NCBI GenBank assembly: GCA_951406725.2 | Contig: OX597822.1 | Span: 106,330,001-106,394,000 of the forward strand | Direction of reading: 5' to 3' | Source: Octopus vulgaris | Taxonomy: Eukaryota | Length of the DNA stretch: 64,000 nt | Shown here: one piece after another, positions 32,056 through 62,902 of the stretch | Numbering within the stretch: the first letter of the stretch is position 1 | Layout of the letters: each line of letters starts with the position of its first letter | The notes under the pieces: generated by a model | Told to the model about the DNA's origin: nothing | Database searches by the model: none | What the model saw: the letters and a program-made list of their open reading frames with translations, nothing else | Program-made: the position numbers and the translations under genes

Positions 32056-32383
32056 TATATTAGAAAAAATGAGGTACTCAGAAATTCGGATGGTTTTATA
32101 TTTACAGATATTTATTCGTATATTACATGTTTTTATACATCATATAACTTATATCATATATATTAGCGCTTTCTCCCATTCTAGTGGGGTTTTCAAATCG
32201 AACTAAGTTCCTGTGAAAATGGTCAACTTAGTTCGATTTGAAAACCCCACTAGAATGGGAGAAAGCGCTAATATATGATATATGATATAAGTTATATGAT
32301 GTATAAAAACATGTGATATACAAATAAATATCTGTAAATATAAAACCATCCGAATTTCTGAGTACCTTATTTCTTCTAATATA
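32056..32383. mobile_element. Palindromic element, family C (~155-bp arms), with hammerhead-like motifs on both strands
   Basis: Spacer cctgtgaaaatggtc. TTGAAAA-cccc..tggga-GAAA-gcgcTA at 32238-32270 (+) and 32196-32164 (-). Confidence 0.65.
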
Positions 32384-35939: not shown

Positions 35940-37038
35940 TCCCATTATCATCATCATCATCATCGTCGTCGTTTAACGTCCGTTCTCCATGCTAGCATGG
36001 GTTGGACGGTTCGACCGGGAATCTGGGAAGCCAGAAGGCTGCACCAGGCTCCAGTCTTATCTGGCAGTGTTTCTACAGCTGGATGCCCTTCCTAACGCCA
36101 ACCACTCCGTGAGTGTAGTGGGTGCTTTTTACGTGCCACCAGCACAGGTGCCAGGCGAGGCTGGCAACGGCCACGGTCGGATTGGTGTATTTTATGTGCC
36201 ACCGGCACGGAAGCCAGACGAGGCAGTGCTGGCATCGGCTACGAGTCGGATGGTGCTTTTTACGTACCACCAGACCAGGGATCATAGAAATATATTTATT
36301 ATAGAGTAACAGAAAGAAAAAAAAAATACAAGAATCAAAGGGAAATAACTCAAATGAACCAATGGCATGAACTGCGATAAATAAGTAGCAGGGTGATGCA
36401 TTGAATACCATACAATAATTCTTAATAGCAATTTCCCAATCTAGCAGCAACTGTTACAAGGGAGATAATTTCAAGGAATTAATTTTTCACAATTAATCTA
36501 ATTAATTTATCATTGAGGCTTTCTATTTTTATTCTGTTTCTAATTTCATGCATTTGATTGTGGTCATGCTGCAGCACCTCCTTCATATTGACCTCAGTAA
36601 TGATTTTAATATAAATCTCTTAAAGTTTTTTTTTTTCTATATGAATAGGATGAAACAACAAATATAACCTTTATTTGCCAGGAAGGGATAACTATGCACA
36701 TGTTCCAGCCCATTACACCTTATTAGCATAGCATAGTCCACTCAAGCCTGCTTGTTGATCAGCTGACAAAGATTTTTACATGTAGAATGAGTTATGTATA
36801 AGTTATGGCCAATATAATTTGCATAGCTAAAAAAATAATTTTAGAAAATGAGCTAAGGGAACTAACTCAAATAAATCAATGACAAAAATTTGAATAAATA
36901 AATTAAGAGGTCATATACTGAATGCCAATATGCAAATTCCTAATTGAAATCTTCTCAGTTGGAGAAAGAGGACAAAAACCTAGCGGCAATTGTTAGCAAG
37001 TCTAAGAAGAAGGGAGATAATTTTAATATAAAGAAATT

Positions 37039-37355
37039 AAACAATTGCAGCATGGAAGGTGTTTATAAGCCATTTAAGAAACACACAAAATCCATTAGAT
37101 TCACTTCAACATTTAAATTTAATTTGTCAAAATATTTTCGTCGCTTTGAGACCGCGACCTGTTCACTGACATAACTTCGTGCTGCATCTCAAAGCGACGA
37201 AAATATTTTGACAAATTAAATTTAAATGTTGAAGTGAATCTAACAGTTTTTATATGTTTCTTAAATGGCTTTTAAACACCTTCCACGCTGCAATTGTTTT
37301 CGTTCCAGCACTCGATCTCAGATCAGGTCACTTGCTATGCAAGTACATCTCCGTA
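37039..37355. mobile_element. Palindromic element, family B, with a G3-C8 hammerhead motif at 37173-37123 (-)
   Basis: Inverted arms of ~110 bp. The minus strand reads tgtca-GTGAACA-g-GTCGC-ggtctcaaa-GCGAC-GAAA-atattt-tgaca. A terminal fragment is also at 62827-62902. Confidence 0.72.
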
Positions 37356-37549
37356 AAAAAGAAATTAAAATTTTGTTGTTAATTTATTATAATTCTGATT
37401 TTCCTTTTTTTTTAATTCTTTTATTGATTTCATTTACTGAATGATTGCTATGTAGAAATGACGTAATGTATATCAGCAAAATGGTTTGAGTTGTTTTTTA
37501 ATATAAAGGAATGCAACTTGACAAACAGTTTCACATAAGTAAGCAATGA

Positions 37550-45895: not shown

Positions 45896-46758
45896 CCATG
45901 ACCACAATTCACTTAGTATGGCATGTCTTCTCAAGCGCATAAATCGCCAGAAGTCTTGGTCACTTGTCATCTTGTCCAGAAATGTAGCTCTATGAAATAA
46001 TCTCTTGCTGACGTTGTTTAGCCTCGGGTCAATCCTGATCAAGAGGACCCACAATCAAAGACATTCCAACTGTTACCATCTCAACTTTGAGAGGTATACA
46101 ATATTACTACTACTACTATATTTCCTTCTTGGGACACAAAAGTCTGCTTGCGAAGACCTGTTGAGGCAAGTGAAATCGAAATCGATCAAAAATCAATGGA
46201 AATTGTAGTTGTGATACCAATGCTGGTGGCATGTAAAAGAACCATCCAAACGTGGCCGTTGCCAGCGCTGCCTCAACTGGCCTCCGTGCTGGTGGTACGT
46301 AAAAAGCATCAACCAATCATGACCGTTGCCAGCCTCCCCTGGCACCTGTGCTGGTGGCATGTAAAAAGCATCCATTACACTCATGGAATGGTTGGCATTA
46401 GGAAGGGCATCCAGCTGTAGAAACACTGCCAGATCAGACTGGAGCCTGGTGCAGCCTCCTGGCTTCCCAGACCCCAGTCGAACCGTCCAACCCATGCTAG
46501 CATAGAAAGCGGACGTTAAACGATGATGATGATATTATCCAAATAAATGTGTAATGGGGAGGGGGGTTCATAGTATTTTCTCCTTGTCGCCGCCCAGTCT
46601 GTTGCAAATATACAGGGTAGGTCTCTGCTTTGAGGATTGCTTGCTCCTAACCTGGTCGAGATGGTCCTGGAGTGGATCTAAGCAAGCAGCAAAGACAAAG
46701 TTTTAACAAAGAAGACAATGGTTTGAAAGTGAATGACAAAATAAGATTGTATATTTAC

Positions 46759-46858
46759 AGGACCAGGGTGGAGTCTGAAACCTGCTAGGCTTGCACCTGA
46801 CAATGGTAATAATTCCCGGGTACTGATTGGTGGCTTTTCAATCACTGACCGAAGGGAG
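46759..46858 (-). CDS. MED19: MED19 coding exon 3 (SSLRSVIEKPPISTRELLPLSGASLAGFRLHPGP)
   Basis: Contains the MED19 motifs SLRS.IEKPPI and LAGFRLH.GP. Has a ttacag acceptor and gtaaat donor; 100 nt, phase 2 to 0. Confidence 0.95.
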
Positions 46859-46986
46859 CTGTAAAGTGGAAAATAAGTGGAGAAGAGAAATATTAAATGA
46901 AAAGAAATTTGCATAATGAGATGAGAAAACAAAATATTTGCATGAGATAAAAGCATTTGCATAAGGAAACAACAGTATTTACATAC

Positions 46987-47882
46987 CGTGTGCTGGAACG
47001 AAGACAATTGCAGCATGGAAGGTGTTTATAAGCCATTTAAGAAACACATGCTGTGCTTAAGGAGACTCAGCAAGCGCAAGTGAGACCATAACCTTGTGGC
47101 CTGTGCCAGGGGTGTAACCAGTCCACATATGCGTGTCTTTCCTTCAGTGGACACTAAACTCCAAGTGAACTCGAAATCAAATTCGATGACTGGCATCTGT
47201 GCTAGTGGAGCGCTAAGAGCACCATACGAGTGAGATCGTTGCCAGAGCAACAAGCTAGCCTCCGTGCCAATGGCACATTAAAAACACCATTCAAGCGTGA
47301 TCATTACCTGCATTGCCTTACTGGCACTTGTGCTGGTGGCACGTGAAAAAACATTCGAGCGAGGTCGTTGCCAGTGCCACTGGACTGGCTCCTGTGCAGG
47401 TGGCACATAAAAAGCACCATTTGGGCGTGGCCGTTGCCAGTACCACATGACTGGCCCTCATGCCGGTGGCACATAAAATCACCCACTACACTCTCGGAGT
47501 GGTTGGCATTAGGAAGGGCATCCAACTGTAGAAACTCTGCCAGATCAGATTGGAGTCTGGTGCAACCATCTGGTTTGCCAGTCTTCAGTCAAATCGTCCA
47601 ACCCATGCTGGCATGGAAAGCGGACGTATAATGATGATGATGATGACAAAAACCGTTAGATTCACTTCAACATTTAAATTTAATTTGTCAAAATATTTTC
47701 ATCGCTTTGAGACCGTGACCTGTTCACTGACAAAACTGATGCAGCACGAAGTTTTGTCAGTGAACAGGTCGTGGTCACAAAGCGACGAAAATATTTTGAC
47801 AAATTAAATTTAAATGTTGAAGTGAATCTAACGAATTCTGTGTGTTTCTTAAATGGCTTATAAACACCTTCCATGCCGCAGT
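46987..47882. mobile_element. Family-B palindromic element with two divergent hammerhead motifs, interrupted by a family-4 element (47050-47645)
   Basis: Motifs at 47753-47803 (+) and 47734-47684 (-), each with a 7-bp stem I tttgtca/tgacaaa. Confidence 0.75.
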
Positions 47883-49545
47883 AGTTACATAATGTGATGA
47901 AAAATACAAAATATTGGTATAACAGAATGAAATGACAAAATATTAGCAGAATAAAAAACACAGGATTTGTCAGAATGCAGGAACAATTTGATCACTTAAA
48001 GAGCAAAACTGAGGCATGTTGAGAACGTTAATATAAGTTTCAGATTTTGGCACAAGGCCAGCAACTTTGGGAGACAAGGCTCTATAGTAGGAAGCTTACT
48101 CCCCAACAATGTGGGGACAGGTTCAGTCATACTGCAACTGCACAGCATCTGGGGCCAATGTCTTCTAGTATAGCCTGCTCAGGGCTGACAAAGTCTTGTG
48201 AAGGAATGAATGAATTTGGTATACAGAAATTGAAAGAAGCTGATATATATTTATGTACTGTTTGTTTTGACATCATGTGGTTGTAAACAAGAGTCACTGT
48301 CATACAAGTGGTGTTGTTTATTTCCAGTCTTCTTTGGAAAATGATTGGCCATGAAGAAAAATTACCTTGATTGGAAATAGATGGGTTGGCAACAGGAAGG
48401 CCATTCAGTCTAAGAAAATCTGCCTCAATAAATTCCATTTGACCCACAGAGCATGGAAAAATAGACATATGATGATGATGACTAGAGTGCTACCTATTAT
48501 ATGAAAGATTACTTTGGAAGTATACTTTGCTGCCATGGGTTATACGAGGAAATATAGCCTGTCTCTTAGCTTTTACTTGTTTCAGTCATTAGACTGCAGC
48601 CATGCTGGGGCACACACAATCATCATAACTTAACTTTAATCAAATTTCTTGATGCTTATACAAAATGATGAAAATTTTCATTGTAGACATACCCTACAAT
48701 GTCATTCTAAAAATATAGAAACTCACCACTGAAATCGTGAAGCTACAAGATAATGGATTAAAGTGAACAAAATGTGAATAAATAAGGAATACATTTGATA
48801 AAGAAATCTGAATGCTAAAGGAGTTGACCCTTTAGTATTTAAGCCAGCCATATCCCAGCCCAAATATTCAATTCGTTTTACAGTCAAACTGACCAGATCC
48901 AGCTTCTCACACCTATCCTGTAATGTCATTCTAAAAACAAACAGTTGTATCATTGAAATCTCAAAGCTATGAGAAAATGCATGATTAATTCAAAACTATG
49001 TGAATAAAAAAGCAATCATCGTTTAACGTCCGCTTTCCATGCTAGCATGGGTTGGACGATTTGACTGAGGGCTGGCGAACCAGACGGCTGCACCAGGCTC
49101 CAATCTTGATCTGGCAGAGTTTCTACAGCTGGATGCCCTTCCTAATGCCAACCACTCAGAGAGTGTAGTGGGTGCTTTTTACGTGCCAGTCAGGCGGTAC
49201 TGGCAACGACCTCGCTCGAATCTTTTTACACATGCCACTGGCATAGGTGCCAGTAAGGCGATGTTGTTAACGAACATGCTCGAATGGTGCCCTTTTACAT
49301 GCCACCAACACAGAGCCAGTTGGCTGCTCTGGCAACGATCATGCTCGGATGGTGCTCTTGGCACCCTACTAGCATGGGCACAATTGCCAGTAAGGTGACG
49401 CTGGTAACGATCACACTTAAATGGTGCCCTTTTATGTGCCACTGGCATGGAAACCGGTTCCACTGGCACAATCCAAATGCCACAGGGGTTAAATAACAAT
49501 AACCCAATAAGACAAAAAGAAAACAAAAAGAACAATAAAGTATAC

Positions 49546-49702
49546 CTTGTGTCATTAATGCCAGGTGTGTCGATATTTCCAGGAAGTGTAGGTAAGAATG
49601 CACTGAGTTCCTCTTTCACTTTCTTTGTAAAAAATTTATTGTAGGAATTACCAAGTCCATAATATGACATAAGGTTTGTGTATCCAGTCATTTCGGCTTG
49701 CT
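49546..49702 (-). CDS. MED19: MED19 coding exon 2 (EQAEMTGYTNLMSYYGLGNSYNKFFTKKVKEELSAFLPTLPGNIDTPGINDT)
   Basis: Matches the MED19 core TNL..Y.L...YNKF..KKVKE.LS.FLP.LPG.ID.PG. Has a cag acceptor and AG|gtata donor; 157 nt, phase 1 to 2. Confidence 0.95.
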
Positions 49703-50059
49703 CTGATTTAGGGGAAACAAAATGAAAAATAAATCATGTTAGTTTGTCAATTGTGTGTTATTCTAATATTAATACATAACCACTTATAGGCAACAAACTG
49801 GCAGAATCGTTAGCATGCCTAATGATCTAAGGCAGTGAGCTGGTAGAAACGTTAGCACGCCGAGCGAAATGCTTAGTGGTATTTCATCTGCCGTTACGTT
49901 CTGAGTTCAAATTCTGCCGAGGTCGACTTTGCCTTTCTTCTCTTCGGGGTCGATAAATTAAGTACCAGTTACACACTGGGGTCGATGTCATCGACTTAAC
50001 ACCTATGTCTGTCATTGTTTGTCCCCTCTATGTTTAGCCCCTTGTGGGCAATAAAGGAG

Positions 50060-50993: not shown

Positions 50994-51263
50994 GTACTAC
51001 TTAAGAAGAGTGGTCCCGGTGCGCGCACTCGCGTACTCGTGCGTCCACGCTAGCTAGTCGTGACTAGTCGATCCTAACTTTGTGCTTTTGTGTTTTATTT
51101 ACGTTGTTTTTAAAAAAATTATTTACTTTGTGTAAAAAAAATTATTTATTTTGTGTTTTATTTACTTTGCTAGGTAGTCGTCGTAGGATCGACTAGTCAC
51201 GACTAGCTAGCGCGGATGCGCGAGTACACGAGTGCGCACACCGGGACCACTCTTAAGTAGTAC
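50994..51263. mobile_element. Fold-back MITE with ~85-bp GC-rich TIRs
   Basis: gtactactt..gtggtcccggtgcgcgcactcg..ctagtcgatcct is inverted at the right end. A second copy lies at 52551-52797. Confidence 0.85.
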
Positions 51264-52917
51264 CACTTTTTCTTTTTACGTTTGTAATTAAGATAGTTTA
51301 GCTTGTCTTGGTAATTAAAAGTTGCCTCATTGATTACAAAGACAAGTCAAACTGTCTTAATTACCGCTTCATGGTATATTTTATCATTTATAATTTTTTA
51401 TAGACATTCGAGTATTCCAGCATGTTTCTGTGTGGTTCCTGCATTTTGTACTGAAGATCGTTGGGTTTCAATTCGTGCGGTTAAAATATAAGATAACGGA
51501 TGTTGTTGACATGTCATGGTACATCTGGATAAAAGTTGAATCGACGAGAAAAAGTCTATTTTTCTAACCGTTCATCATCATCATTGTTCGACCGTGGTCG
51601 AGACGATGGAATTTACTATGCTATGCCAGACTTCACGGTCCATCATAACATTACGGAGGTCCTGTTGCAGGATGCCTGTATCCCTGGAGGTTAATCTCTA
51701 ACCGTTAACCTCACAGCAAAATTAAAAGCAAAAAGACACACAGATGTCTGTCATTATTATAATTGTAATAATAATAATAATAATAATAGGTTCAAATTTT
51801 GGAAAAGAGCCAGCTGTTTTTGAAAGGATAGAAGGCTAAGTACACTTAGGCGACATTTGAACTCAAACATTCGAAAGAAATGCAGCAAAGAATTTTGTCC
51901 GAGTTGCTAACAATTCTGCTAAGCTCGACGCCTTAATAATAATCCTTTCTACTAAAGGCACAAGGCCTGAAATTTAAGGGGAGAGGGACTAGTCGATTAC
52001 ACCGACCCCAGTGTTTCACAGGTACTTATTTACCTCGGCGGAATTTGAACTCAGAACGTAGCGCCAGACAAAATGTTGAAAAGCATTTTGTCCGGTGTGC
52101 TAACGATTCAATAATAATGGTTTCAAATTTTGGCATAAGGCAAGTTCGTGGGAGGGGGTAAGTCGATTATATCGACCCCCAGTGCTCAACTGGTATTTAT
52201 TTTACCGACCCCCGAAAGGATGAAAGGCAAAGTCGATCTCGGCGGAATTTGAAATAAGAACGTAAAGACGGAGGAAATGGTGCTAAGCATTTTGTCCGGC
52301 ACGGTAACGATTCTGCCAACGCACCACTTTAATAATAATAATAATAATATTGGTTCCAGTTTTTGGCACAAGGCCAGCAATTTTGCAGGAGGGGATATGT
52401 CGACTACATCGATCCCTAGTGCTTAAATGGAACTTATTTTATCGAACCCGAAGGCATTTGAACTCAGAATATAAAGACGGATGAAATGCCGCTAAGCATT
52501 TTGCCCGGCACGGTAACGATTCTACCAGCTTGCCGATGATAATAATAATGGTACTACTTGAGAACAGTGGTGCCGGTGCGCGCACTCGCGCAAGCTAGTC
52601 ATGACTAGTCGATCCTTACTTTGTGTTTTTGTGTTTTGTTTACTTTGTTTAACAAAAATTATTTACTTTATGTAAATAATTATTTATTTTGTGTTTTATT
52701 TACTTTGCTAGTAGGATCGACTAGTCACGACTAGCTAGCGCGGATGCGGGACTACGCGAGTGCGCGCACCGGGACCACTGATCTCAAGTAGTATACCAAT
52801 AATAATAATAATATTGAAGAAGAACAAGAACAAGAAGAAGAAGACATGGAAATAAATAGCGTTGAAGAAAAAATATTTAAAAAGAACCAAAAAATACAAA
52901 AAGGTATTCTTTTTTAC

Positions 52918-53104
52918 CAGGTACATCTTTCATGAGGTAAAACGGTCCCGAATGGATAACAGACGGTACTTTGCCTAAACTGATGGTAGTTTTAAGTGTT
53001 CCTGTGGAATCGGTGCGCGGATGTGCCGGGGACCTGGAACCCCTGGGGCTGGATTTGGGGCTGGAGATCGCGGGTTCAACTCTGCGGAGCTGATCTGCCA
53101 TCAT
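52918..53104 (-). CDS. MED19: Mediator subunit 19, coding exon 1 (MMADQLRRVEPAISSPKSSPRGSRSP...LKTTISLGKVPSVIHSGPFYLMKDVP)
   Basis: ATG at 53104. SPKSSPRG, TLKTTISLGK and GPFYLMK are motifs recognised from metazoan MED19. Ends at G|gtaaaa donor; 187 nt, phase 1. Confidence 0.93.
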
Positions 53105-53357: not shown

Positions 53358-53376
53358 GTCCGGTATATGAATTACC

Positions 53377-54716
53377 TATTTCTTTATTACCCACAAGGGG
53401 CTAAACACAGAGGGGACAAACAAGGACAGACATAAACGGATTAAGTCGATTATATCGACCCCAGTGCGTAACTGGTGCTTAATTTATCGACCCCGAAAGG
53501 ATGAAAGGCAAAGTCGACCTCGGCGGAATTCGAACTCAAAACGTAGCGGCAGACAAAATACCTATTTCTTTACTACCCTCAAGGGGCTAAACAAAGAGGG
53601 GACAAACAAGGACAGACATAGGTATTAAGTCGATTACATCGACCCCAGTGCGTAACTGGTACTTAATTTATCGACCCCGAAAGGATGAAAGGCAAAGTCG
53701 ACCTGGGCGGAATTTGAACTCAGAACGTAGCGGCAGACGAAATACCTATTTCTTTACTACCCACAAGGGGCTAAACACAGAGGGGACAAACAAGGACAGA
53801 CATAGGTATTAAGTCGATTACATCGACCCCAGTGCGTAACTGGTACTTAATTTATCGACCCCGAAAGGATGAAAGGCAAAGTCGACCTCGGCGGAATTCG
53901 AACTCAAAACGTAGCGGCAGACGAAATACCTATTTCTTTACTACCCTCAAGGGGCTAAACACAGAGAGGACAAACAAGGACAGACATAGGTATTAAGTCG
54001 ATTACATCGACCCCAGTGCGTAACTGGTACTTAATTTATCGACCCCGAAAGGATGAAAGGCAAAGTCGACCTCGGCGGAATTCGAACTCAAAACGTAGCG
54101 GCAGACGAAATACCTATTTCTTTACTACCCTCAAGGGGCTAAACACAGAGAGGACAAACAAGGACAGACATAGGTATTAAGTCGATTACATCGACCCCAG
54201 TGCGTAACTGGTACTTAATTTATCGACCCCGAAAGGATGAAAGGCAAAGTCGACCTCGGCGGAATTCGAACTCAAAACGTAGCGGCAGACGAAATACCTA
54301 TTTCTTTACTACCCTCAAGGGGCTAAACACAGAGAGGACAAACAAGGACAGACATAGGTATTAAGTCGATTACATCGACCCCAGTGCGTAGCTGGTACTT
54401 AATTTATCGACCCCGAAAGGATGAAAGGCAAAGTCGACCTCGGCGGAATTTGAACTCAAAACGTAGCGGCAGACAAAATACCTATTTCTTTACTACCCTC
54501 AAGGGGCTAAACACAGAGAGGACAAACAAGGACAGACATAGGTATTAAGTCGATTACATCGACCCCAGTGCGTAACTGGTACTTAATTTATCGACCCCGA
54601 AAGGATGAAAGGCAAAGTCGACCTCGGCGGAATTTGAACTCAGAACGTAAAGACAGACGAAATACTGCTACGCATTTCGGCCGGCGTTGCTAACGTTTCT
54701 GCCAGCTCGCCAGCTC
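53377..54716 (-). repeat. Family-1 SINE tandem array: one head plus 7 x 184-bp units
   Basis: Units start at 53375, 53561, 53745, 53929, 54113, 54297 and 54481. 19-bp direct repeat gtccggtatatgaattacc at 53358-53376 and 54717-54735. Confidence 0.95.
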
Positions 54717-58210: not shown

Positions 58211-58800
58211 GGCGGCGAGCTGGCAGAGTCGTTAGCACGCCGGGCGAATTGCTTAGCGGCATTTCGTCTGCCGTTACGTTCTGAGTTCAAATTCCGCCGA
58301 GGTCGACTTTGCCTTTCATCCTTTCGGGGTCGATTAAATAAGTACTAGTTGAGCACTGGGGTCGATATAATCGACTTAATCCGTTTGTCTGTCCTTGTTT
58401 GTCCTCTCTATGTTTAGCCCCTTGTGGGTAGTAAAGAAATAGGTATTTCGTCTGCCGCTATGTTCTGAGTTCAGATTCCGCCGAGGTCGACTTTGCCTTT
58501 CATCCTTTCGGGGTCGATTAAATAAGTACCAGTTGAGCACTGGGGTCGATGTAATCGACTTAATCCGTTTGTCTGTCCTTGTTTGTCCCCTCTGTGTTTA
58601 GCCCCTTGTGGGTAGTAAAGAAATAGGTATTTCGTCTGCCGCTACGTTCTGAGTTCAAATTCCGCCGTGGTCGATTTGCCTTTCATCCTTTCGGGGTCGA
58701 TTAAATAAGTACCAGTTACGTACTGGGGTTGATATAATCGAATTAATCTGTTTGTCTTTCCTTGTTCTGTGTTTAGCCCCTTGTGGGTAGTAAAGAAATA
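58211..58800 (+). repeat. Family-1 SINE tandem array: one head plus 3 units
   Basis: Units start at 58258, 58442 and 58626. TSD ggtaat(g/t)tcagagg at 58199-58212 and 58801-58814. Confidence 0.9.
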
Positions 58801-59350
58801 GGTAATTTCAGAGGTGAAGAACCAACTCCGGTAATTATCAGAAATGGCTGGAAGAAACAGTACGGCGTGGCTCCTGTCACTGGATCCCTGAACCCGTGTT
58901 TATGAGTCTAAGGATTGTTATAAAATATCGGAAAGAAATTCATAAAAGAAATCAGATGAAATCCAAGGAAAAGAATATTTAGTTCATCAAAGTTATGTCC
59001 CTTAGATTAGAACTAAACAAGTTCACCATAATTACAGATATTTGCTTACAAGGAAATTTTGGGACGGATAAATGCGAGATGGAATAGAGGTGCAAAGACA
59101 GGTGGAGTATGTGTATGGGTTTGTATATTTCAAAGTTGGGTGTGGCATATCTTATATGAAAGAGCCAACGTTTATTTTTACGACTAGTTTACTAACATAT
59201 TTCTGCGCTTATACGAGCAGAAGCATAAGTCACCACTTTTGAAATTTAGATAGGCCCCTGAATGAAGGGATTTTTTAAAATATGATTATTTTATTTTTTT
59301 ATTTTTGGGTGGGGAGGGGGGCCGCTATGCAGATGAAGATATATAAATAT

Positions 59351-62778: not shown

Positions 62779-62828
<50 letters not shown>

Positions 62829-62902
62829 CGGAGATGTACTTGCATAGCAAGTGACCTGATCTGAGATCGTGTGCTGGAACGAAAACAATTGCAGCGTGGA
62901 AT

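What the first reader, a model, noticed from the sequence alone, without database searches (positions are those of the whole stretch)
47684..47803. Back-to-back minimal hammerhead ribozymes with a swapped G3-C8 core pair in a palindromic element inside MED19 intron 2
Seen: tttgtca-GTGAACA-g-GTCGT-loop-GCGAC-GAAA-atattt-tgacaaa on +, and the mirror copy on -. This has type I hammerhead topology: 7-bp stem I, 5-bp stem II and a very short palindromic stem III (AATATT). The core reads GUGAACA rather than CUGANGA. Established: hammerheads use a tertiary C3-G8 pair that tolerates compensatory swaps, and Penelope-like elements carry minimal hammerheads with palindromic stem III thought to act as dimers. 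Inference: this is a G3-C8 variant ribozyme family that a standard CUGANGA search would miss. A third copy with a perfect stem II is at 37173-37123.
Basis: partly seen in the sequence, partly recalled or inferred. Interest (0 to 1): 0.85.

Follow-up and report, generated by a model that had tools for sequence, protein, structure and literature searches.

The report
Penelope hammerhead with swapped core pair
This palindrome is the flipped, broken-off end of a jumping gene (a Penelope-like element with thousands of copies) whose hammerhead-shaped RNA motif carries its central C-G pair reversed to G-C, a natural variant I did not find in print that likely still cuts RNA weakly, although the copy in this intron is probably inactive.

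Summary
The motif is real and lies at the stated coordinates. The palindrome is an inverted pair of short 3' ends (pLTRs) of a Neptune/Nematis-type Penelope-like retroelement (PLE). A near-complete copy elsewhere has the same G3-C8 hammerhead motif in both direct repeats around an RT plus GIY-YIG ORF. The 21-mer core pattern occurs 6,225 times (control 0), and 95 of the first 100 listed are G3-C8. Two PLE families 54-55% identical in protein carry U3-A8 or C3-G8 at the same place, with compensatory stem changes, so this is a genuine hammerhead homolog. Corrections: the two back-to-back motifs lie on opposite strands and cannot dimerise in one transcript; in MED19 pre-mRNA they form a -131.5 kcal/mol hairpin, and the sense copy has a damaged stem II. 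Against an essential cut: unpaired G3-G8 copies also spread, the youngest sister subfamily has A9C, and 39 of 47 copies start upstream of the cut site, many at a start site with a likely cap-derived extra G. Cleavage is untested. Natural G3-C8 was not found in my searches, but the largest PLE-hammerhead survey was unreadable. The scan's earlier notes showed no match. New variant of a known kind.

The parts
47753..47803 (+). Minimal type I hammerhead motif with G3-C8 core (G3 47760, C8 47765, predicted cut 47796|47797); antisense to MED19
   Evidence: sequence; fold shows stems I and II
47684..47734 (-). Mirror hammerhead motif, sense in MED19 pre-mRNA; stem II damaged by two substitutions
   Evidence: sequence; weak fold, z -0.70
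47738..47880 (+). Right arm: pLTR copy from the start-site region (ATGCAGCAC) through the hammerhead and the ORF start (ATG at 47853) to the first of the family's two 3' ends
47646..47737 (-). Inner part of the left (inverted) arm
   Evidence: self-BLAST
46987..47048 (-). Outer part of the left arm, including part of the optional PLE tail
   Evidence: matches 37314-37252 and 47880-47841
47049..47645 (.). Later SINE-like repeat inserted into the left arm
   Evidence: many matches elsewhere in the window; SINE label recalled, not from a call
46974..46985 (.). Left copy of the likely target-site duplication (11 of 12 bases identical to 47880-47891)
47880..47891 (.). Right copy of the likely target-site duplication
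37042..37357 (.). Second insertion of the same family: inverted pair, minus arm complete, plus arm truncated inside loop II and carrying the tail; flanked by a 12-bp duplication (37030-37041 and 37358-37369)
37123..37173 (-). Third G3-C8 hammerhead motif, perfect stem II
52918..53104 (-). MED19 first coding exon (host gene)
   Evidence: joins the next exon in frame; no Pfam hit of its own
49546..49702 (-). MED19 second coding exon
   Evidence: PF10278 match, splice sites
46744..46858 (-). MED19 third coding exon (3' end approximate)
   Evidence: PF10278 match

Best explanation
The palindrome is an inverted pair of short 3'-end (pLTR) copies of a Penelope-like retroelement whose hammerhead motif has G3-C8 in place of C3-G8; the motif likely still self-cleaves slowly in the element's own RNA, probably only as a direct-repeat dimer or with the element's protein, while the copy in MED19 intron 2 is probably inactive. 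Shown: the family has one ORF with RT and GIY-YIG domains between two direct pLTRs, each with the motif; related families have C3-G8 or U3-A8 at the same place. Inferred: the ancestor had C3-G8 and two point changes reversed the pair, which keeps the Watson-Crick 3-8 contact and the 2'-OH of nucleotide 8 that acts as general acid. Inferred: transcription starts inside the pLTR 23 nt before G3, so a cut would remove the cap and the first 60 nt, about 56 nt ahead of the ORF's ATG, and cuts in both pLTRs of a tandem transcript would free a unit-length RNA. Inferred: reverse transcription starts at two sites within the ORF start and, on the cap-proximal pLTR, yields the roughly 150-200-nt copies that fill the genome, often as inverted pairs. 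These copies came mostly from uncut RNA, so cleavage is at most a partial, modulating step.
For: PLE identity: GIY-YIG C-terminus about 1 kb upstream of the motif (PF01541 above cut-off); 20 of 20 loci picked by the endonuclease carry the G3-C8 motif; L293 has two direct pLTR motifs 4.26 kb apart around the ORF; RT motifs and a CQSNCAVC linker in P0001; 12-bp target duplications. Homology to canonical hammerheads: family B (54% identical protein) reads UUGAAAA, i.e. U3-A8, in 11 of 12 distinct copies, and family C (55%) reads C3-G8 in 15 of 15 pieces; both were found by protein similarity, not by an RNA pattern. 1,042 genomic matches have canonical CUGANGA plus the same extra G and stem II frame (control 0), some with stems I and II like family A's. 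Pair counts: 3-8 as CG 14, GC 4, UA 1; two stem II pairs change on both sides; covariation 0.456 against 0.196, 0 of 500 shuffles; stems I and III also show double changes. G3-C8 is shared by old and young subfamilies whose endonuclease DNA differs by about 15% while loop II changed. The extra nucleotide after A9, G10.1-C11.1, the palindromic 15.2-16.2 region and U17 match the published PLE motifs (PMC4209133). In an anole PLE hammerhead the C3G/G8C double mutant partly restores cleavage, and cleavage needs the protein (PMC11167929). 5' ends: 17 of 47 pieces start at -1..+6 of the inferred start site; 20 of 31 that stop there and keep AG have a G before it, where the template has C or T in 39 of 40.
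Against: No cleavage data. Unpaired G3-G8 copies number 203 of 6,225, occur on every subfamily background, sometimes in both arms, and cluster on contig C16 with different flanks, so a core-broken source probably transposed. The youngest family C subfamily, with intact 1312-aa ORFs, has A9C in 15 of 15 pieces. Only 1 of 47 pieces starts within 3 nt of the cut site and 39 of 47 span it. No significant excess conservation over the flanks within the family (p=0.12). Co-folding two copies did not give the double hammerhead, and the AAUAUU duplex alone is worth only -0.2 kcal/mol. The pair counts lean on my row choice: 13 of 19 rows came from patterns that fixed C3, G8 and three stem II pairs, and I left out the G3-G8 copy and two copies with stem II mismatches. 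The engineered rescue is only partial, and in vitro insertion did not need cleavage.
Confidence: 0.6

Rival explanations
1. Vestigial hammerhead. The motif descends from a PLE hammerhead but no longer cuts; its fold is kept as a protein-binding or 5'-leader structure, or simply has not had time to decay, and the reversed pair was fixed by drift.
For: G3-G8 copies spread; A9C in the youngest family C subfamily; templates were mostly uncut; no excess conservation over flanks; cleavage dispensable for insertion in vitro and no reads ending at the cut site in the anole element (PMC11167929).
Against: Both known double changes at 3/8 in this clade (to U-A in family B, to G-C in family A) restore a Watson-Crick pair that exists only in the catalytic fold, and U4 G5 A6, A9, GAAA and U16.1 stay fixed across subfamilies while loop II changes.
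Confidence: 0.3
2. The two back-to-back motifs in MED19 intron 2 work as a local ribozyme dimer that cuts the MED19 pre-mRNA.
For: One motif is in sense orientation in the intron and its stem III sequence is self-complementary.
Against: The motifs are on opposite strands; the arms pair as an about 85-bp hairpin of -131.5 kcal/mol, z -23; the sense copy has lost G10.1-C11.1 and a second stem II pair; the locus is one of thousands of similar insertions and was itself interrupted by another repeat.
Confidence: 0.04
3. The palindrome is a MITE or fold-back DNA transposon and the hammerhead likeness is chance.
For: Long inverted arms with a target duplication; no Rfam hammerhead hit among the 150 of 196 matches listed.
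Against: Arms have variable 5' breakpoints and two alternative 3' ends; the sequence continues into a PLE 3' UTR and RT-EN ORF; canonical-core sister motifs got no listed Rfam hammerhead hit either (150 of 211 listed).
Confidence: 0.01

Closest known systems
Minimal type I hammerheads in the pLTRs of Penelope-like elements (Cervera and de la Pena 2014, PMC4209133; parts 1-2 of 4 of the text and parts 1-2 of 3 of the supplement read)
   Same: Position in both pLTRs; extra nucleotide between A9 and G10.1; G10.1-C11.1; short palindromic helix III region; U17 common; opposite-strand pairs and solo copies described.
   Different: The core is G3-C8. That paper reports C3-G8 and a U3-A8 variant in Schistosoma; no row of its Figure S3 alignment, as extracted, begins with G3.
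Poseidon PLE hammerhead of the green anole, PAc (PMC11167929; passages and second half of the main text read)
   Same: Hammerhead next to the ORF start in the pLTR; two 3' ends inside the ORF start that define an optional tail; uncut RNA as the main template; its engineered C3G/G8C double mutant is the core found here.
   Different: Here G3-C8 is natural and fixed; the cut lies about 56 nt before the ATG rather than 26 nt after it; the element has the CX2-5CxxC linker that Penelope/Poseidon lacks.
Natural U3-A8 core variants (Perreault et al. 2011, PMC3088659; passages read)
   Same: Compensatory change of the 3-8 pair found in nature.
   Different: The passages seen name only U3-A8; G3-C8 needs two transversions instead of two transitions. 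Figure 5 and S6 were not visible.
Neptune and Nematis clades of EN+ PLEs (Craig et al. 2021, PMC8557442; passages and one supplement searched)
   Same: RT, CX2-5CxxC linker, C-terminal GIY-YIG; partial tandems, inverted 5'-truncated copies, tail on one side, insertions in AT-rich and (TA)n sites.
   Different: Placement between Neptune and Nematis was not tested; no named reference family was compared.

Membership tests
Hammerhead ribozyme, strict consensus core | Literal C3 and G8 (CUGANGA) | tested here: not met
   GUGAACA in 108 of 124 pieces spanning the motif; it therefore falls outside the strict consensus used in PMC3088659
Hammerhead ribozyme, strict consensus core | Watson-Crick pair between positions 3 and 8 | tested here: met
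   G-C here; C-G and U-A in related families; 203 of 6,225 genomic 21-mers are unpaired G-G
Hammerhead ribozyme, strict consensus core | U4 G5 A6, A9, G12 A13 A14, A15.1-U16.1, H17 | tested here: met
   sequence; no shared variant of 10% or more in these columns among 81 pieces
Hammerhead ribozyme, strict consensus core | Site-specific self-cleavage after position 17 | not testable with these tools
   only assembled contigs were available, which show no RNA ends
Minimal PLE hammerhead (PMC4209133) | Stems I and II with compensatory changes; G10.1-C11.1 | tested here: met
   not met in the minus-strand copy at 47734-47684
Minimal PLE hammerhead (PMC4209133) | Unpaired nucleotide between A9 and G10.1; palindromic 15.1-16.1 stretch | tested here: met
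   extra G at 47767; AAUAUU is self-complementary
Minimal PLE hammerhead (PMC4209133) | Present in both direct pLTRs around the RT-EN ORF | tested here: met
   L293 positions 1237 and 5498
Minimal PLE hammerhead (PMC4209133) | Active as a dimer | tested here: inconclusive
   co-folding gave no double hammerhead and the duplex is weak; energy models do not cover tertiary or protein effects
Rfam hammerhead families | Score above a family threshold | tested here: inconclusive
   no hit among 150 of 196 listed matches; canonical-core sister motifs also had none among 150 of 211 listed
Penelope-like element, EN+ (Neptune/Nematis type) | Single ORF with RT and C-terminal GIY-YIG | tested here: met
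   P0001, 1025 aa open, YVDD motif; PF01541 25.4 bits over cut-off 22.6; Pfam RT families did not hit P0001, and RVT_1 hit a family B ORF only below cut-off
Penelope-like element, EN+ (Neptune/Nematis type) | CX2-5CxxC linker before the endonuclease | tested here: met
   CQSNCAVC; definition from PMC8557442
Penelope-like element, EN+ (Neptune/Nematis type) | pLTRs, inverted 5'-truncated partner, optional tail | tested here: met
Penelope-like element, EN+ (Neptune/Nematis type) | Phylogenetic placement among named PLE clades | not tested
   no named reference proteins were at hand
MITE or DNA transposon | Fixed ends with terminal inverted repeats, no retroelement body | tested here: not met
   variable breakpoints and continuity with a PLE ORF
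Non-LTR retrozyme | Non-coding head-to-tail tandem units, each with a hammerhead | tested here: not met
   copies are mostly solo or inverted and belong to a coding element; only L159 and L174 of 30 tail-picked loci show short direct tandems

The most novel reading that the evidence does not exclude
This is the first natural hammerhead family with a fixed, working G3-C8 core. One PLE clade in one genome holds three Watson-Crick versions of the 3-8 pair, showing that selection kept catalysis through two separate double changes, and the ribozyme sits 60 nt behind the cap as a protein-assisted switch that removes the cap from the element's own mRNA.
Probability: 0.3. Interest if true: 0.62.

Novelty: new variant of a known kind. 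Interest (0 to 1): 0.42.

Why it matters
The C3-G8 tertiary pair of the hammerhead is known from structure, from engineered swaps and from natural U3-A8 cases; a fixed natural G3-C8 family completes the picture and shows that descriptor searches miss thousands of motifs per genome. More useful is the natural series in closely related elements (C3-G8, U3-A8, G3-C8, plus the broken G3-G8 and A9C cores that still spread). It makes an open question directly testable: whether PLE hammerheads must cleave for the element to move. The mapped start site and the predominance of uncut templates point to a modulating rather than an essential role. For MED19 itself the insertion is probably just a passenger.

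Tried and rejected
1) The RT fragment next to copy L017 first looked like the parent element; it belongs to family B with a different pLTR. The ORFs upstream in L053 are an LTR-retrotransposon integrase region, also unrelated. 2) G3-G8 as the preserved intermediate between C3-G8 and G3-C8: the endonuclease tree left the base of family A unresolved (12 rows; young copies cut to 5 and copies with no motif downstream dropped). G3-G8 occurs on all loop II backgrounds, and several such loci have C8 in the other arm. Seven older-looking G8 copies are more diverged (7.1% against 2.0%, p=0.0002), but older copies are expected among mutants, so an intermediate is not shown. 3) A micro-inversion as the cause of the swap: the reverse complement of the canonical hexamer does not give GUGAAC (sequence reasoning). 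4) Sequencing runs: no RNA holder listed; four runs laid were contigs only and say nothing on ends or expression. 5) GIY-YIG family search: 20 of 148 matches fetched; mostly distant clades, and my descriptor found a candidate (U3-A8) in only 2 of 20. 6) Metagenome scan for the G3-C8 frame: 119 matches examined, 17 with a paired stem II, 1 with a possible stem I; treated as chance. 7) No solved-structure hit for P0001. 8) One search used a misplaced bracket for the 3-8 pair; one search is the correct count. 9) Rows of families B, D and J were left out of the 10-row alignment for stems I and III because their shorter or irregular helix III misaligned; family D's stem I does not fit the simple model. 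10) Literature searches that did not show a natural G3-C8 hammerhead: 'hammerhead' with 'G3-C8' (1 paper, engineered variant), 'G3C8' (0), 'G3 C8' (0), 'C3G'+'G8C' (2, both engineered), 'C3-G8'+'variants'+'genome' (2), 'GUGA'/'covariation'/'natural variant' (6 listed), 'Penelope'+'octopus', 'Neptune'+'mollusc'. Lunse et al. 2017 (PMC5785218), Przybilski and Hammann 2007 (PMC1986816) and the 2017 Terminon paper were not held; I saw nothing of them beyond citations, and they or their supplements may list G3-C8. bioRxiv supplements were closed; of the 2026 retrozyme preprint I read part 1 of 5.

Full report
Observation. The plus-strand motif is at 47753-47803 and the mirror motif at 47734-47684 on the minus strand; a third is at 37173-37123 on the minus strand. 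In hammerhead numbering the plus copy has G3 (47760), C8 (47765), A9, an extra G, a 5-bp stem II closed by G10.1-C11.1, GAAA, AUAU, U16.1, U17 and a 7-bp stem I. The minus copy has lost G10.1-C11.1 (now G.U) and a second stem II pair. MED19 runs on the minus strand, with profile matches at 49551-49703 and 46744-46860 and an in-frame first coding exon at 53104-52918 (recognised from a recalled motif, no Pfam hit), so the site is in intron 2. Rfam listed no hammerhead here (150 of 196 matches shown), but it listed none for canonical-core relatives either (150 of 211 shown).

What the palindrome is. Self-comparison shows that the left arm continues at 46987-47048 beyond a SINE-like insertion of about 600 bp. 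Both window insertions have 12-bp flanking duplications (11 of 12 and 12 of 12 identical). The window lies in a 2.8-Gb genome; a DNA search gave 1,684 candidates (40 scored), and an exact 21-mer with positions 3 and 8 left open has 6,225 matches against 0 for the control. Copies have variable inner breakpoints and two alternative outer ends. Walking upstream led through a microsatellite-rich stretch of about 1 kb to a GIY-YIG endonuclease. All 20 loci fetched from the endonuclease search carry the motif downstream of an RT-EN ORF, with the same G3-C8 core and a changed loop II. L293 is a near-complete element with two direct pLTRs, each with the motif, 4.26 kb apart around an ORF broken once. 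The protein has RT motifs, a CQSNCAVC linker and GIY-YIG, the layout of Neptune/Nematis PLEs (PMC8557442, passages); the best named relative is an octopus RT-domain protein at 57%. Inverted 5'-truncated partners and a one-sided tail are described hallmarks of PLE insertions. The palindrome is therefore an ordinary PLE insertion product, here called family A.

Is the motif a hammerhead homolog? Two related PLE families were found by protein similarity alone. Family B (54% identity) has UUGAAAA-G-GUUGC...GCAAC-GAAA-AU-UU, that is U3-A8, in 11 of 12 distinct copies. Family C (55%) has C3-G8 with GUCAC...GUGAC and GAAC-UU in 15 of 15 pieces. A pattern with the canonical core and the same stem II frame has 1,042 matches (control 0); the 30 loci fetched are mostly older family C subfamilies and further families, and a narrower pattern gave 17 matches, including B-like copies with C3-G8 and single copies whose stems resemble family A's. 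On 19 aligned rows the 3-8 pair reads C-G 14, G-C 4, U-A 1, two stem II pairs change on both sides, and the covariation score is 0.456 against 0.196 (0 of 500 shuffles). On 10 rows, stems I and III add double changes, with 93% of cells paired. Limits: 13 of the 19 rows came from patterns that fixed C3, G8 and three stem II pairs; of the 25 hits parsed I aligned 18, leaving out three duplicates, a second L226 copy, the G3-G8 copy L169 and two copies with stem II mismatches; related rows can beat such shuffles without structure. The part free of that bias is that three protein-defined families show three different complementary states. The motif also has the features that PMC4209133 lists as emerging in PLE hammerheads: an extra base after A9, G10.1-C11.1 and a palindromic helix III region, and U17 is frequent in its Figure S3.

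How it likely works. Nucleotide 8 contributes its 2'-OH as the likely general acid (PMC6155905, passage), and G8C is partly rescued by C3G (PMC8495972, passage). In an anole PLE hammerhead each single change abolishes cleavage, the double change partly restores it, cleavage needs the element's protein, and insertion in vitro does not need cleavage (PMC11167929). The 5' ends of copies add a new point. Of 47 pieces from 30 loci picked by the tail, 17 start at -1..+6 of the A in TC-AGATGCAG, 1 starts within 3 nt of the cut site and 39 start upstream of it. Of 98 distinct copies that contain this site, 58 stop there; 31 of these keep the AG, and 20 of the 31 have G before it, where copies that continue have C or T in 39 of 40 (p=4e-6 against one in four). 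An extra G is what reverse transcription across a cap leaves (recalled for other retroelements, not from a call). I read this as the start site, 23 nt before G3, 60 nt before the cut and about 116 nt before the ATG. The site also looks like a splice acceptor (CTAAC, pyrimidines, AG), as in D. virilis Penelope; the lack of shared sequence beyond the G argues against a spliced exon but does not exclude it. Either way the templates were mostly uncut. The family's two 3' ends lie inside the ORF start, as in the anole element, which would explain the flood of short pLTR-only copies.

Evidence against an essential ribozyme. G3-G8 accounts for 203 of the 6,225 matches; 81 of the 100 listed are on contigs C1-C15 and 19 in the first 5.6 Mb of C16. 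They have different flanks, all loop II types, and sometimes G8 in both arms. The youngest family C subfamily has A9C yet intact 1312-aa ORFs. Among 81 family A pieces picked without the motif, shared variants fall in 5 of 9 loop II columns and 1 of 42 structured columns (p=0.0003, but the loop changes are not independent), and the structured part is not significantly better kept than the flanks (15 of 163, p=0.12); rare substitutions are alike (2.0% and 1.6%), as expected for copies that decay after insertion. Co-folding gave no double hammerhead. The idea that G3-G8 is the preserved intermediate was not supported.

The MED19 copy. A dimer needs two sense motifs on one RNA or on two RNAs. Back-to-back copies give one sense and one antisense arm, which fold into a hairpin of -131.5 kcal/mol (z -23) that buries the motif, and the sense copy is the damaged one. 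It is probably inert as a ribozyme.

Novelty. PLE hammerheads, their inverted copies and natural U3-A8 cores are known (PMC4209133; PMC3088659, passages); G3-C8 is known as an engineered rescue. I found no natural G3-C8 family, in Figure S3 of PMC4209133, in passages of PMC6765202, PMC6155905 and PMC7229834 or in the one supplement of PMC8557442 searched. The largest survey of PLE hammerheads (PMC5785218) was not held, so the claim is provisional. The scan's earlier notes had no look-alike sequence, no note on this genome and no G3-C8 case; one note on a U3-A8 phage hammerhead agrees that U3-A8 is documented. Verdict: a real, high-copy new variant of a known motif, probably weakly active in the source element and inactive at this locus. 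Interest 0.42.

Noticed in passing
L064:7218-7266 and L063, L065-L069, L118: The youngest PLE family C subfamily has intact 1312-aa ORFs and identical pLTRs, but its hammerhead core reads CUGAUGC (A9C), while older subfamilies have the canonical A9.
   Followed up: partly
L057:7122-7169, L231, L237, L244: PLE family B has a U3-A8 hammerhead, and B-like copies with C3-G8 also exist, a second compensatory change within the same clade.
   Followed up: partly
G000 contig C16, first 5.6 Mb (L078, L087, L109, L110, L111, L169): Cluster of family A copies with an unpaired G3-G8 core and different flanks; 19 of the 100 listed G3-G8 matches are here.
   Followed up: partly
family A 5' ends, e.g. L006, L009, L154, L157, L290; window 37189-37190: Copies stop at AGATGCAG with an extra G in 20 of 31 cases, a likely cap signature that maps a PLE start site from genomic copies alone.
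   Followed up: yes
L137:2247 and L138:2722: Candidate U3-A8 hammerhead with A17 downstream of a more distant GIY-YIG family.
   Followed up: no
L207, L211, L226, L228: A further family with a canonical core whose 3' side (GAAA GATTTCCGGACA) does not fit the simple stem I and III model.
   Followed up: no
window 4511-4617 +: U6 snRNA match, 99.8 bits, with changes near the 3' end; gene or pseudogene.
   Followed up: no
window 51000-51367: Local inverted and duplicated repeat (about 51000-51290) just inside MED19 intron 1, with a weak mir-196 hit below threshold at 51281-51367.
   Followed up: no
window 32162-32272: Near-perfect 110-bp palindrome, possibly another small mobile element.
   Followed up: no
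window 53369-54665 and 58261-58809: Head-to-tail arrays of a 184-bp SINE-like unit (7 and 3 copies) in opposite orientation.
   Followed up: no
window 62828-62901: Isolated 74-bp tail fragment of family A, 98.6% identical to 37281-37354.
   Followed up: no
L053:8385-9899: LTR-retrotransposon integrase region inserted upstream of a family A 3' end, itself next to a family B element: nested insertions.
   Followed up: no
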